DNA from: Promethearchaeota archaeon
GTDB lineage: Archaea > Asgardarchaeota > Lokiarchaeia > Sigyniarchaeales > SOKP01
DNA: 64,000 nucleotides
Direction: 5' to 3'
Assembly: GCA_019058245.1 (NCBI GenBank)
Contig: JAHPZJ010000025.1
Location: 28,408-92,407, forward strand
Below are positions 26,930 to 64,000 of this stretch, one piece after another. Both the position numbers and the translations under genes were made by a program. Positions within the stretch are counted from its first letter, which is position 1, and each line of letters starts with the position of its first letter. Under the pieces are notes generated by a model, which was not told the origin of the DNA, did not search any database, and saw nothing but the letters and a program-made list of their open reading frames with translations.

Positions 26930-28402
26930 TTAACCTTTCACTACACCAATAGGAACAAATCTCACTACTTTTTCAACAATTCCAAGATCATGGCTAACTT
27001 GAACAACTTGATCTATATCCTTATAAGCACCAGGAGCCTCTTCAGCAATAACTTTCATCGCAGCAGCTCGAATTATGATACCTTTTTTGCTTAAATCCTC
27101 TTTAACACGTTCTCCCCAGTACTTCTTTGTTGCTTTTGATCTTGACATTACCCTTCCTGAACCATGAGCTGTCGAACCAAAAGAAAGATCCATGGCCTTT
27201 GGTTTACCAACACATAAATAAGAAGCAGAACCCATAGTTCCTGGAATTAAAGCTGGCTGTCCTATTGATTTATAATCATTTGGCAAAGCTGGATGTTCAG
27301 GAGGAAAAGCTCTTGTTGCACCTTTTCTATGAACATTCAATTTCATTTTCTTACCATTTACTTCATGCTCCTCTATTTTTAATATATTATGGCAAACTCC
27401 ATAAATTAAATGCATATCTAAATCATCAAAATCCTTTTTAAATGTATTTTGAAAGGATTCTCTTAACCAGTGAGTAATAAGTTGACGATTTGTGAACCCA
27501 AAATTTGCAGCACAACCCATTTGTTTCAAATAATTCTGGGCTTCTGGTGTGTCAGCCGGTACACAAGCTAACTCTCTATCTGGTACCTTAATATCATATT
27601 TCTTCATCGCTTGTTCGATATTGCGTAATGAATCAGTACACACTTGATGTCCAAGAGCTCTACTCCCTGTATGTACCATAACTGTAATTTGATCCTTTCT
27701 ATTTATACCTAAAGCTTTTGCAATAGTCTCATTGTAAATTTTATCAACTTTCTGAATTTCCAAAAAATGATTCCCACTCCCTAACGATCCTAGTTGTTTA
27801 ATAGCTCGCTGTTTTGCTTTTTGGGAAACTAAACTCGCATCAGCATCTTTTAAACATCCATTCTCCTCTAAATGTGTAAGATCCTCTTCAATAGCATAGT
27901 CATTTTCTATTGCCCAATTCACACCATTGTTTAGAACATCATCTAAATCTGAAAAACTTATATTTAGCTTACCTTTTGAACCTAATCCTGAAGGGATATT
28001 GTTAAAAATACTATCCAAGAGAGTTGGCAGCACACCCTTAACATCGCTAAGGGTTAAATTCGATCGAAGCAGACGAACCCCACAATTTATATCATATCCT
28101 ACTCCACCTGGAGAAATCATCCCACTCTCTGCATCTGTCCCTGCAACACCTCCAATACAAAATCCATATCCCTGGTGAGCATCCGAAAGAGCAATCGCAT
28201 GCTTCTCTATCCCTGGTAAACACGCTACATTGCAAATTTGATCTATTGTACGATCTAATCGAATCTTTTCTAATATATATTCATTCGCATAAATCTTCAC
28301 CGGAACCCTCATCTCAAATTTCTCAATTATCCCTTTAGTCCTTGCCATCAACGTCTTTGGAGGAATCTCGTAGATATTGTCTGCTATTTTATTTACATTC
28401 AT
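26930..28402 (-). CDS. rtcB: tRNA-splicing ligase RtcB
   Basis: DAHQGYGFCIGG, VGYDINCG, GSGNHF, HTGSR, HRKGA, STAHGSGR and EEAPGAYK. Confidence 0.98.
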   Translation of the reverse strand: MNVNKIADNIYEIPPKTLMARTKGIIEKFEMRVPVKIYANEYILEKIRLDRTIDQICNVACLPGIEKHAIALSDAHQGYGFCIGGVAGTDAESGMISPGGVGYDINCGVRLLRSNLTLSDVKGVLPTLLDSIFNNIPSGLGSKGKLNISFSDLDDVLNNGVNWAIENDYAIEEDLTHLEENGCLKDADASLVSQKAKQRAIKQLGSLGSGNHFLEIQKVDKIYNETIAKALGINRKDQITVMVHTGSRALGHQVCTDSLRNIEQAMKKYDIKVPDRELACVPADTPEAQNYLKQMGCAANFGFTNRQLITHWLRESFQNTFKKDFDDLDMHLIYGVCHNILKIEEHEVNGKKMKLNVHRKGATRAFPPEHPALPNDYKSIGQPALIPGTMGSASYLCVGKPKAMDLSFGSTAHGSGRVMSRSKATKKYWGERVKEDLSKKGIIIRAAAMKVIAEEAPGAYKDIDQVVQVSHDLGIVEKVVRFVPIGVVKG

Positions 28403-44792: not shown

Positions 44793-45402
44793 TTAAAATT
44801 CCAAAAATCCAGGATCATCAAAAATGTCGTCGATTTTACGTTCCTTTTTTATCTTGGTCTCACTTTCAGTAAACAAGGATTCCTCATCTGTACGAACTCC
44901 TCGTTCTAATTCTTCGGTATCTAATTTTAAAACTGTATCCTTTTCCAAACTCTTATATTTTTCGCTTTTTATTTTCCAGTCGTTAACCTCATCTAAATTA
45001 ACATCTTCTTCTTCTAATAGTACAGCAGCTTTAGTTTTACAAAGATCTGATAAAATTGAATAAGCTAATGCTAATTCACCCCATTCGTGATCATCTTTTA
45101 ATTTTTTTATTCTTTTCTCTAATCTTTGCAATTCTTGATCAGCATAATAAACATCAATAAAATCTCCGAATGCATCTACAGGTTCTGAAATAGAATTTAC
45201 TAATACTTCTTTTGTTAATCCACAATTTCCACATTTCACTGTAGCAAAAGCACCTTTCTTCTTTATATCAGTAACCTTAACACTTTTTTCACCGCATTCG
45301 AGGAAAGATCGGAATCCAATCTACTCATTCTGGGCAGGTGAAAATTTTAGGCACTCTCTTTACTCGTTTCGGTGATACTTGTTTACGCTTTCTTCTTCCC
45401 AT
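44793..45402 (-). CDS. elf1: Transcription elongation factor Elf1 with C-terminal extension; split by a 31-nt intron (exons 45402-45328 and 45296-44793)
   Basis: MGRRKRK...PKIFTCPE|CGEKSV...VKCGNCG...EPVDAFGDFID once 31 nt are removed; 192 aa spliced. Confidence 0.9.
45297..45327 (-). other. Putative BHB mRNA intron in elf1
   Basis: Central helix CCAG/CTCG, bulges AA|T and AA|T, inner helices GAG/TTC and AGATTGG/CCGATCT, outer exon helices GC/GC and TTCACC/GGTGAA. Confidence 0.8.
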
Positions 45403-55151: not shown

Positions 55152-56381
55152 GTGATTTGTAATAATATTAACGTGAAACTTACTGAAGTTATCCAAATAA
55201 ACTATTCAGTAGAGTTATCAAGATTATGTCATTTAGCAAAGAATCTTTACAATTTAGCTAATTGGTATGTTAGACAACACTTCTTTAATCTCGATACTCT
55301 CTTATCATATTATGATTTAGATTTCATTCTAAAAAATAAACATGAATATCTAATTTTACCTTCTCAAACATCACAACAAATTCTCAAATACGTGACTAGA
55401 GATTGGAAGTCTTATTTCAGAGGATTAGAAGAATATAAAACAAATTTTAAGAAATTCAAAAAAAAACCCAAAATCCCACAATATAAGAAGAAAAATGGAG
55501 AGTTTGTAGTAATTTTTACCAATCAGCAATGTAAAATTAAGAATGGATATTTATATTTTCCAAGAAGGGTCAATCTTGAACCAATTAAAACAAGAATCAC
55601 CGAAAGATTAAAAGAAGTGAGAATGATCCCTTTAGGCGTAAAATATAAAATTGAACTTGTATATGAAAAAGAACTGAAGGATTTAAAATTAGAAAAAGGT
55701 CATGTGTTAAGTATTGATTTAGGATTAAATAATCTCATAACTGCAGTAAATAATAATGGATGTCAACCTTTTATTATTAAGGGGGGGATGATAAAATCCA
55801 TAAATCAATATTATAACAAGCAAGTGGCATACTATAGAAGTATCGAAAATAAAAAAGGTAATTTCACCGATACAAAAAGGATTCAAAAACTCCATTTAAC
55901 TCGAAATAATAAACTTATTACATTTTTTCATCGAATCTCTAAGAATGTAATTGAATATTGTACTTTACATAACATTGGAACAATTGTCATAGGATACAAT
56001 TACGGATGGAAACAAAAGATCAACATAGGAAAAAGAAATAATCAGAAATTTGTACAAATCCCTTTCTTGAAATTAGTACAACAAATCGAATATAAAGCGA
56101 AATTGAAAGGAATAAATGTCCTAAGAGTTAATGAATATCACACATCTAAATGTTCTTTCTTAGATAATGAACCAATTGGAAAACATACGACCTATGCAGG
56201 AGAAAGAATTTCCAGAGGGCTGTTCAAAACCTCCAAAGGTATTGCACTCAATGCTGATGTGAATGGAGCATATAATATCATGAAAAAAGCATTCCCAAAT
56301 GCCATTTCGGTGGATGGGATAGAGGCATTCGGACTAATGCCGCAAATACTACAACAAAATATCGTTGATATTAGTATTTGA
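55152..56381 (+). mobile_element. tnpB: IS200/IS605-family TnpB with no adjacent TnpA
   Basis: AKNLYN, LPSQTSQQ, SIDLGLNN, IGYNYGWKQ, NEYHTSKCS, RGLF and NADVNGAYNI. Confidence 0.93.
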
Positions 56382-62563: not shown

Positions 62564-63562
62564 ATGATTGAAGAGATAATTGAAAAGCTAAACGTTTTAT
62601 TACAAAAGGCTAATTACGAAACATTGGCTCTGGGTAATTTTGCGGCAAAAAAGAATAAATTTTGCTTTGATCTATTAGTTAAAAAGAATGATTTAGTATT
62701 TAGTGTAAAAGTTATTCCTAATATTGATAATTTAAATCCAAATATCGTACGAGATATTAAATCGTTATCTACAATTCTTAAATCAAAGCCTTTATTAATT
62801 GGAATTAGGAATAGATACCAAAAATTAGAAGACAACACAATTTATTTAAGAGAAGATTTACCGTTTATAACACTTAATACATTTGAAAATATTCTTAATA
62901 GCAATTATCCCCATATTTTAGCTAGACGAGGTGGTGGAGTAGTATTTTTAGATGGATTATTAATGAAAGCTTTAAGAGAAGATCATTTATTATCAAGAAA
63001 GGAATTATCTGATAAATTAGGTGTAACCAAAAGGACTTTATGTGCTTATGAAAATGAATCTATGCGACCTTCAGAGAAAATTGCTAAAAAAATACTTGAA
63101 CTATTGGAAAATGATAAACTTTTTAGAAAAATCAATATATTCGAATGGCCAATTAAAGTTGAAATAAAAAATTTCGAACTTTTCGAAGGAGAGGAACTGA
63201 CTGAGTTTGAAACTCATGTTCAAGAGATTATTAAAGATATCGGAGTTTCTTCTTATTGGTATAAAAAAGGTTCAATTCCCTTCAAATTATCTTTATATTC
63301 TATTTCTGATAAGAAAGAATCCGAAGGATTTTATCCTCTCTTTTCTGGTATAACTGAAGAACAAGGAAAAATTAATGAAATGAGCTTTAAATGCCTAAAA
63401 ATGTTTACAAAATTATTCCACAAAAAATCATTATTTATTATAAATAATGGAATAAAAATACCTGAAAAATTCCGTAAAGAAAAAATACCTATTGTTAAAA
63501 TTGGAAATTTAGAAAAAGTAGATGATGAAGAAGAATTCATTGAACTCATCCAAGATTCATGA
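62564..63562 (+). CDS. Conserved archaeal HTH regulator (nuclease-like N-domain + Cro HTH)
   Basis: CFDLLVKK, NIDN, ARRGG and LSRKELSDKLGVTKRTLCAYE. Confidence 0.88.
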   Translation: MIEEIIEKLNVLLQKANYETLALGNFAAKKNKFCFDLLVKKNDLVFSVKVIPNIDNLNPNIVRDIKSLSTILKSKPLLIGIRNRYQKLEDNTIYLREDLPFITLNTFENILNSNYPHILARRGGGVVFLDGLLMKALREDHLLSRKELSDKLGVTKRTLCAYENESMRPSEKIAKKILELLENDKLFRKINIFEWPIKVEIKNFELFEGEELTEFETHVQEIIKDIGVSSYWYKKGSIPFKLSLYSISDKKESEGFYPLFSGITEEQGKINEMSFKCLKMFTKLFHKKSLFIINNGIKIPEKFRKEKIPIVKIGNLEKVDDEEEFIELIQDS

Positions 63563-63569
63563 GGATAAT

Positions 63570-64000
63570 TTGGAATTAATTTGTGGGATAGACGAGGCTG
63601 GTAGAATTTAATTCGCTTCGAATTTTATATTAAAAGGCTCTGTCTTAGGTCCTATGGTTATATGTGGTATTTGTTTTATTAAATCAAATTTAGATTTCCT
63701 TTCAGAAATAGGAGTTAAAGATTCAAAAAAGTTATCTCCTCAAAAGAGAAAAAGTTTAGCGGAAATTTTGAAAAGAAACTGTTATTCATATAATATTATT
63801 GAGATAAGCGCTCTTGAAATTGATGCGAGGGAAATTAAAAAAATTTCATTGAATCGACTAGAAGAATTAAAAATGGCAGAAATTATAAACAAATTAAAAC
63901 CTGATACGATATATATTGATGCTGCTGATGTTAATGAAGAGAGATTTGGAGTTTCTATTAAAAATCTATTAAATTATAAACCTAAAAACATCATCTCTAA
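63570..64000 (+). CDS. rnhB: Ribonuclease HII split by a 30-nt intron; 3' end truncated by window edge
   Basis: TTG after GAGGA; MELICGIDEAGR|GSVLGPMVI...GVKDSKKLS...IYIDAAD once 30 nt are removed. Confidence 0.93.
63605..63634 (+). other. Putative BHB mRNA intron in rnhB
   Basis: Central helix TGGT/ATTA, bulges AG|A and AA|A, inner hairpin AATTCG/CGAATT, outer exon helix AGACGAG/CTC-T-GTCT; contains an in-frame TAA. Confidence 0.85.

What the first reader, a model, noticed from the sequence alone, without database searches (positions are those of the whole stretch)
63605..63634. BHB-type intron splitting the catalytic DEAGRG motif of RNase HII
Seen: GAC GAG GCT GGT AG|AATTTAATTCGCTTCGAATTTTATATTAAA|A GGC TCT GTC TTA GGT CCT. 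The 30-nt insert introduces an in-frame TAA, and its removal restores DEAGRGSVLGPM. The fold has a fully paired central helix TGGT/ATTA (two G-U pairs), 3-nt bulges AGA and AAA, an inner AATTCG/CGAATT hairpin and an exon-exon helix; canonical BHB cut positions give the exact junction. The visible remainder of the gene is intact. Inference: second EndA-spliced mRNA intron.
Basis: partly seen in the sequence, partly recalled or inferred. Interest (0 to 1): 0.93.

Follow-up and report, generated by a model that had tools for sequence, protein, structure and literature searches.

The report
tRNA-type mini-intron splits Asgard RNase HII
The only RNase HII gene found in this Asgard (Loki-type) archaeon is broken inside its active-site motif by a 30-base insert shaped like a tRNA intron, and more than 120 related genes indicate that the insert is cut out of the messenger RNA, something the papers I could search document for only one other archaeal coding sequence (cbf5).

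Summary
Confirmed. A 30-nt insert (63605-63634, in-frame TAA) splits the Arg codon of DEAGRG in the only rnhB found in this 76%-complete Promethearchaeota MAG. Cutting after the second base of each bulge restores the motif exactly.

It is neither an artefact nor a pseudogene. In the same family, 81 genes carry a 28-31-nt insert at the identical site and 44 lack it. The bulge-helix-bulge covaries (91% of cells paired, 12 of 21 pairs compensatory, 0/500 shuffles), including silent exon positions pairing with intron bases. Interrupted genes keep the acidic active-site residues and normal dN/dS (0.16). Two EndA subunits (the catalytic one with the broad-specificity loop) and RtcB are present.

Another 41 archaeal rnhB genes (DPANN, Hadarchaeota, Thermoplasmata, Bathyarchaeia labels) have 23-47-nt BHB inserts at the same site. 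In one DPANN order the intron travels with an adjacent LAGLIDADG-like gene; that gene was not found in this family.

Splicing itself is inferred; no RNA run was listed. Corrections: the probable start is ATG 63522, and the 3' bulge may be 4 nt. I found no paper on it, but this scan has reported the same rnhB intron before in at least 21 other genomes.

The parts
63522..63604 (+). rnhB exon 1 (probable start ATG 63522; 27 codons plus AG of the split Arg codon; holds the Asp-Glu codons of DEAGRG at 63591-63596; overlaps the end of the upstream gene)
   Evidence: open from ATG 63522; N-terminus matches intronless relatives P0099/P0100
63605..63634 (+). 30-nt BHB-type intron, in-frame TAA at 63609-63611
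   Evidence: same site in 81 family genes
63635..64000 (+). rnhB exon 2, open to the contig end (3' part of the gene not assembled)
   Evidence: TIGR00729 ribonuclease HII, E 3e-22
63599..63602 (+). central helix, exon strand (TGGT)
   Evidence: pairs with 63629-63632; last pair kept in 80/81 genes with 4 pair types
63603..63605 (+). 5' bulge AG^A (cut after 63604)
   Evidence: AGA in 76/81
63606..63628 (+). intron hairpin (helix h'), 63606-63614 with 63620-63628
   Evidence: 88% of cells paired, 8 of 9 pairs with changes on both sides
63629..63632 (+). central helix, intron strand (ATTA)
63633..63636 (+). 3' bulge AA^A(G) (cut after 63634); 3 or 4 nt depending on the exon-helix register
63590..63645 (+). 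exon-exon helix h: 63590-63598 with 63636-63645
62564..63562 (+). upstream PRK04140-type HTH regulator gene (conserved neighbour, probably co-transcribed; not a homing endonuclease)
26933..28240 (-). RtcB RNA ligase (Pfam match region), the likely ligase
   Evidence: (E 4.6e-170), for coordinates
45297..45327 (-). second BHB-type insert (31 nt) in elf1, same splicing system

Best explanation
The insert is a bulge-helix-bulge intron in the rnhB pre-mRNA. The transcript folds so that four exon bases pair with the intron's 3' end between two bulges (shown by covariation). The two-subunit EndA cuts after the second base of each bulge and RtcB joins the exons, rebuilding the Arg codon and the DEAGRG motif (inferred from established tRNA and cbf5 splicing; both enzymes shown present). 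Unspliced RNA yields only a 29-residue peptide, so active RNase HII depends on splicing. In this family the intron is old, mostly inherited, and is lost or regained as a short DNA patch by recombination (shown for one pair of close relatives; direction open). It is probably a near-neutral passenger at a conserved target site rather than a regulator (inference).
For: Exact excision restores the motif. Only rnhB match in G000. 81 genes with a 28-31-nt insert at the same site vs 44 without in the family; none in 24 other Asgard genes. Structure: 90.9% of cells paired, 12/21 pairs and 75 cells with changes on both sides, 0/500 shuffles as high; slid controls 29-46%. Silent Gly position pairs with its intron partner in 80/81 despite 14 and 10 changes on the tree (37% expected from intronless exon letters); it is A in 0/81 intron genes vs 19/44 intronless. 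Acidic active-site residues kept in all interrupted genes; median dN/dS 0.162 vs 0.156. 41 distant archaeal rnhB genes have 23-47-nt inserts at the same site, 37 with 4/4 central pairs, while chance matches (mostly bacterial) pair poorly. EndA alpha keeps Tyr138/His146/Lys177 and the loop residues matching Aeropyrum K44/R46 (PMC3241643); second subunit on C20; RtcB.
Against: No spliced RNA or peptide was observed. The single-sequence BHB is weak: two G-U pairs in the central helix and a predicted minimum-energy fold that differs from it. The genome is 76% complete, so a second rnhB cannot be fully excluded here, although nearly all relatives, including >=95%-complete ones, show a single full-length match. 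Relatives are not independent samples.
Confidence: 0.92

Rival explanations
1. The RNA is not spliced; the protein is made from exon 2 alone, starting inside the insert (the 213-aa product that databases call ribonuclease HII), as an inactive or non-catalytic form.
For: Gene callers report this 204-213-aa product throughout the clade. An ATG/GTG/TTG lies in frame inside the insert in 50 of 81 genes.
Against: 31 of 81 have no such start, including this genome (ATA at that place). The product lacks the Asp-Glu of DEAGRG, yet exon 1 keeps both in 81/81. It does not explain exon-intron covariation, or 23-47-nt inserts of all three frame classes.
Confidence: 0.03
2. Translational recoding (ribosome bypass of the hairpin, or stop read-through) skips the insert without RNA splicing.
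For: The insert is a hairpin, in frame in 77/81 family genes, usually with a stop at its second codon.
Against: The stop is TAA, TAG or TGA and sits at six different codon positions; several genes have two stops; 28-, 29- and 31-nt versions shift the frame. Read-through would put 10 residues into the active-site motif. The conserved feature is the BHB geometry with exact EndA cut positions.
Confidence: 0.02
3. The gene is a pseudogene, or the insert is an assembly artefact.
For: In-frame stop; the gene is cut by the contig end; MAG 76% complete; no reads could be laid.
Against: An identical 30-mer occurs in a different species' assembly (G043) and homologous inserts in 80 more genomes and about 22 metagenome contigs. 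dN/dS matches intronless genes.
Confidence: 0.02
4. The insert is excised at the DNA level (small programmed deletion) instead of from RNA.
For: The boundaries slide by one base (A at both ends); intronless alleles exist among close relatives.
Against: No junction-form contig of this clade's type was found in the metagenome collection. The nearest intronless allele differs at 14 of 45 flanking bases, so it is not a clean excision product. G-U-tolerant covariation points to RNA.
Confidence: 0.01

Closest known systems
cbf5 pre-mRNA intron of Desulfurococcales and Sulfolobales (PMC2738675; Watanabe 2002 and Yoshinari 2006 as cited there)
   Same: Short insert (cbf5: 16-44 nt) inside a coding sequence, splitting a codon in the catalytic motif; BHB-like fold with cuts after the 2nd bulge base; often an unconventional BHB needing the two-subunit EndA; patchy gain and loss.
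   Different: Different host gene (rnhB) and lineage (Asgard, plus DPANN, Hadarchaeota, Thermoplasmata, Bathyarchaeia labels). It splits the Arg codon next to the catalytic Asp-Glu rather than the catalytic Asp codon. cbf5 splicing was shown by cDNA; this is not. In a DPANN order the rnhB intron is linked to an adjacent LAGLIDADG-like gene; PMC2738675 calls the origin of the cbf5 intron unclear.
Non-canonical BHB introns of Asgard tRNAs (bioRxiv 10.64898/2026.10.13.758758)
   Same: Same motif and presumably the same enzymes; most Asgard genomes there have two EndA paralogues; none yet shown spliced in an Asgard cell.
   Different: That preprint covers tRNA genes only: 'mRNA', 'cbf5' and 'rnhB' do not occur in it. 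[quoted passage not shown]
BHB intron in the 5' UTR of Haloferax HVO_1309 (PMC7714728)
   Same: EndA-processed intron in an mRNA.
   Different: Untranslated region, not a coding sequence. The paper states that cbf5 was the only other mRNA example known.
Collaborative homing of phage introns with free-standing homing endonucleases (described in PMC10448857)
   Same: An ORF-less intron in a conserved gene with an endonuclease gene beside it: seen at 9/9 copies of the LAGLIDADG-like gene found in the DPANN sample, 7 with the intron.
   Different: Phage cases involve self-splicing introns (own knowledge). Here the intron is a protein-spliced BHB. No such gene was found in this genome's family, and its nuclease activity is untested.

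Membership tests
EndA-spliced BHB mRNA intron (cbf5 type) | Insert interrupts a coding sequence and exact removal restores a conserved protein motif | tested here: met
EndA-spliced BHB mRNA intron (cbf5 type) | 4-bp central helix between exon and intron, flanked by bulges, with borders after the 2nd base of each bulge | tested here: met
   4/4 pairs here; 61/81 with 4 and 20/81 with 3 in the family; 37/41 with 4 elsewhere
EndA-spliced BHB mRNA intron (cbf5 type) | Strict 3-nt bulges on both sides (canonical hBHBh') | tested here: inconclusive
   5' bulge 3 nt; 3' bulge 3 or 4 nt, the 4-nt register better conserved. Relaxed forms are also typical of cbf5 introns (PMC2738675)
EndA-spliced BHB mRNA intron (cbf5 type) | Structure maintained by selection (covariation) | tested here: met
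EndA-spliced BHB mRNA intron (cbf5 type) | Host encodes a two-subunit broad-specificity EndA and an RNA ligase | tested here: met
   subunit assembly and substrate range are inferred from sequence
EndA-spliced BHB mRNA intron (cbf5 type) | Spliced mRNA observed, or cleavage by EndA in vitro | not testable with these tools
   no RNA run was listed for this stretch
Group I / group II self-splicing intron | Ribozyme core of 200 nt or more matching Rfam models | tested here: not met
   30 nt; no Rfam match at E<=1
Pseudogene | Relaxed selection and accumulating lesions | tested here: not met
   dN/dS 0.162 vs 0.156; active-site residues kept; full-length spliced ORFs of about 216-217 aa from the motif onward
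Collaborative homing unit (intron plus free-standing homing endonuclease) | Endonuclease gene adjacent to the intron-bearing gene | tested here: inconclusive
   Met in 10 non-Asgard loci and in the DPANN order sample; not found with this query in 135 genomes of this family; DNA downstream of rnhB is not assembled in G000
Collaborative homing unit (intron plus free-standing homing endonuclease) | Endonuclease cuts the intronless allele and spares the intron-bearing one | not testable with these tools
   needs a cleavage assay

The most novel reading that the evidence does not exclude
rnhB holds a mobile, protein-spliced mini-intron family spread across many archaeal lineages by collaborative homing with a free-standing LAGLIDADG-like endonuclease. 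It became established in a Loki-type Asgard family whose members splice several housekeeping mRNAs (rnhB, elf1 and others) with the tRNA machinery. That would be routine mRNA splicing in the archaeal group closest to eukaryotes, and a first concrete route by which BHB introns arrive.
Probability: 0.55. Interest if true: 0.9.

Novelty: new member of a known kind. Interest (0 to 1): 0.77.

Why it matters
Archaeal coding-sequence introns are documented for essentially one gene, cbf5. A second family, conserved across a whole Asgard family and recurring at the same codon in distant archaea, suggests EndA/RtcB mRNA splicing is common and overlooked. It makes a DNA-repair enzyme (RNase HII removes ribonucleotides from DNA; own knowledge) dependent on the tRNA-splicing pathway. 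Public databases annotate the N-terminally truncated 213-aa product, lacking the Asp-Glu of DEAGRG, as 'ribonuclease HII', so annotation of these genomes is systematically wrong. The link to an adjacent endonuclease gene and the patch-like exchange offer a directly testable answer to how BHB introns spread, which PMC2738675 and the 2026 Asgard tRNA preprint both leave open.

Tried and rejected
RNA evidence: no RNA holder was listed for the stretch, so no reads were laid; this is no evidence either way.

Spliced junction in assemblies: a pattern for this clade's junction found nothing in metagenome contigs. A gap-tolerant pattern gave 26 stretches, 23 with the 30-nt insert by match length and three intronless genes that I did not place. 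Full-length protein hits were intronless relatives, not transcripts.

Genome-wide census of mRNA BHB introns: a loose scan showed no enrichment over frame-shifted controls (760 vs 750-811). A strict scan gave 3 vs 2-7 and missed this intron and elf1. I give no genome-wide count.

Phylogenetically independent pairs for the covarying position were too few to test (3 pairs, p 0.5). Rfam: no match. The careful tree did not finish; the quick tree was used and cannot tell gain from loss.

NCBI taxon labels proved unreliable: family members are titled Hod-, Odin-, Hermod- or Thorarchaeota, and two 'Methanosarcinales' records fall in the same order as a Woesearchaeota genome. I therefore do not claim Methanosarcinales. 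Fisher tests ignore kinship and, for the patch, use borders chosen after looking. Seven of eight literature searches concerned archaeal mRNA introns; none returned a paper on an rnhB intron, but subscription journals are mostly not covered.

Full report
Observation. They place TAA (63609-63611) in frame two codons after DEAG. Among the deletions tried, only this one or its sequence-identical one-base shift restores DEAGRGSVLGPM. The reading frame is open back to ATG 63522, and that N-terminus matches intronless relatives, so exon 1 is 63522-63604 and unspliced RNA gives a 29-residue peptide. Exon 2 is open to the end of the window, which is also the contig end. It is the only RNase HII match in this 3.09-Mb, 76%-complete assembly. 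Record titles of family members name Promethearchaeota, including Loki_b32, so this is a Loki-type Asgard archaeon.

Anatomy. TGGT (63599-63602) pairs with ATTA (63629-63632), the 5' bulge is AGA, and the intron forms a hairpin (63606-63628); an exon-exon helix closes the structure. Cuts after the second base of each bulge, the rule given for cbf5 in PMC2738675, give exactly the insert. Alone, this fold is weak evidence: z -1.57 against shuffles, and the BHB-constrained fold is about 6 kcal/mol above the predicted minimum. The 3' bulge is 3 nt if a C-G pair next to a G.G mismatch closes it, or 4 nt in a register that is better kept across relatives.

Relatives decide the question. In the family, 81 rnhB genes from 8 genera carry an insert at the same place (77 of 30 nt; also 28, 29, 29, 31) and 44 do not; 24 genes from other Asgard families do not. 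All 81 have at least 3 of 4 central pairs and 61 have 4. On 73 distinct sequences the structure has 90.9% of cells paired, 12 of 21 pairs and 75 cells with changes on both sides; no shuffle of 500 reached that pairing level, and slid controls gave 29-46%. The clearest signal is at silent exon positions. The third base of the Gly codon pairs with its intron partner in 80 of 81 genes as U-G, C-G, G-C or U-A, through 14 exon and 10 intron changes on the tree, against 37% expected from intronless exon letters. It is never A in intron-bearing genes but is A in 19 of 44 intronless ones. A formal independent-pairs test had too few pairs. The interrupted genes keep the acidic active-site residues and have the same dN/dS as intronless genes, 0.162 against 0.156. 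They are therefore working genes, and the insert has to be removed.

Machinery. The genome has two EndA paralogues and RtcB, the latter in this window. The 197-aa subunit is closest to the Aeropyrum pernix catalytic subunit and keeps Tyr138, His146 and Lys177, plus Lys55 and Arg57, which align with K44 and R46 of the loop that gives broad substrate specificity (PMC3241643). The 200-aa subunit lacks the His. This is the type of enzyme expected for a relaxed BHB. A second insert of the same kind in this window, 31 nt in elf1, restores the zinc-knuckle CPEC when removed.

Wider distribution. Beyond this family, 41 archaeal rnhB genes have inserts of 23-47 nt at the same junction, 37 with 4/4 central pairs and nearly all with a paired hairpin; chance matches, mostly bacterial, do not fold so. 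On an RNase HII tree they form separate groups labelled Woesearchaeota/Nanoarchaeia, Micrarchaeota, Hadarchaeota, Thermoplasmata, Bathyarchaeia and others; labels are partly unreliable. Every insert whose length is a multiple of three carries an in-frame stop (77/77 in the family, 7/7 elsewhere). The only six without a stop shift the frame. This suggests selection against a read-through protein (inference; kin not independent).

How it spreads. Presence needs at least 14 changes on the best quick tree, at least 6 on well-supported branches. An intronless allele (L303) is 96% identical to an intron-bearing one (G114) outside a 45-nt patch around the junction but differs at 14 of 45 bases inside it, where it resembles another intronless genome, G039. 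The intron thus comes or goes as a short recombination patch, not by clean excision or copying of the gene's own mRNA; the direction is open. Following a lead from earlier scan notes, I found a LAGLIDADG-plus-HTH gene directly upstream of rnhB in 10 non-Asgard loci. In 301 genomes of one DPANN order, all 9 copies of that gene sit before rnhB and 7 of those rnhB genes have the intron. The gene is in 6 of 9 genomes matching the intron pattern against 2 of 189 matching the intronless pattern. This resembles collaborative homing (PMC10448857). The gene was not found with this query in this genome's family, where the neighbours are an HTH regulator upstream and, in relatives, fibrillarin downstream.

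Mechanism and rivals. Most likely (0.92) the rnhB pre-mRNA is cut by EndA at the two bulges and joined by RtcB. Shown: the structure, its conservation, the need for removal, and the presence of the enzymes. Inferred: the cleavage and ligation themselves. Translation of exon 2 alone, ribosomal bypass or read-through, pseudogene or artefact, and DNA-level excision each fail on several counts, listed under rivals. No RNA run was listed, and no spliced form was found in assemblies or protein collections.

Comparison and novelty. The closest known case is the cbf5 intron (PMC2738675), which a 2020 paper calls the only other archaeal mRNA example besides a 5'-UTR intron (PMC7714728). A 2026 preprint on Asgard BHB introns treats tRNAs only. 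No searched paper mentions an rnhB intron. It meets every testable defining feature of the cbf5 type except strict 3-nt bulges, which remain open, so I file it as a new member of a known but very small kind. The mobility link would make it a new variant if the endonuclease is shown to cut. This scan has reported the same rnhB intron before, in 22 findings from at least 21 genomes; those notes were leads only, and the numbers above are my own. Interest 0.77.

Noticed in passing
window 45297-45327 (-): 31-nt BHB-type insert in elf1 (helix CCAG/CTCG with 3 of 4 pairs, AAT bulges); removal restores the CPEC zinc knuckle and the reading frame.
   Followed up: partly
G000 C23:15430-15459 (+) and C28:106916-106949 (-): Two further BHB-like inserts came out of my strict scan, restoring a GMGYVG dehydrogenase motif and a CdhA cysteine motif; both match earlier scan notes.
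   Followed up: no
L303:314-1030 (GCA_019057915.1) vs L081 (G114): Intronless rnhB about 96% identical to an intron-bearing allele outside a 45-nt patch around the junction, 14/45 different inside it: intron presence exchanged by patch recombination.
   Followed up: yes
L171:6612-7688, L191:1727-2737, L192, L215, L243, L304-L312: LAGLIDADG_3 plus HTH protein (about 340 aa) directly upstream of rnhB in DPANN, Thermoplasmata- and Hadarchaeota-labelled genomes, about 50% identical across them. The two copies beside an intronless rnhB have a changed codon at the site (AAG, CGT), which might make them resistant to cutting.
   Followed up: partly
P0001-P0212 (public proteins): Databases hold the exon-2-only 204-213-aa product as 'ribonuclease HII', without the Asp-Glu of the DEAGRG motif.
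   Followed up: yes
window 63522-63562: rnhB probably starts 41 bases inside the end of the upstream PRK04140-type regulator gene, suggesting translational coupling.
   Followed up: partly
   Followed up: no
window 55152-56381 (+): 409-aa ORF that looks like an IS200/IS605-family TnpB by its sequence (own recognition, not tested).
   Followed up: no
G003:C18:144667-145191, G018:C9:18861-19388, G087, G097, G100, G154: A weaker second RNase HII-family match inside longer open frames (277-587 aa) in six family genomes.
   Followed up: no
L156, L158, L168, L254, L182, L215, L243: NCBI titles mislabel many of these MAGs (Loki-family genomes as Hod-, Odin-, Hermod-, Thorarchaeota; Woesearchaeota-like ones as Methanosarcinales).
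   Followed up: partly
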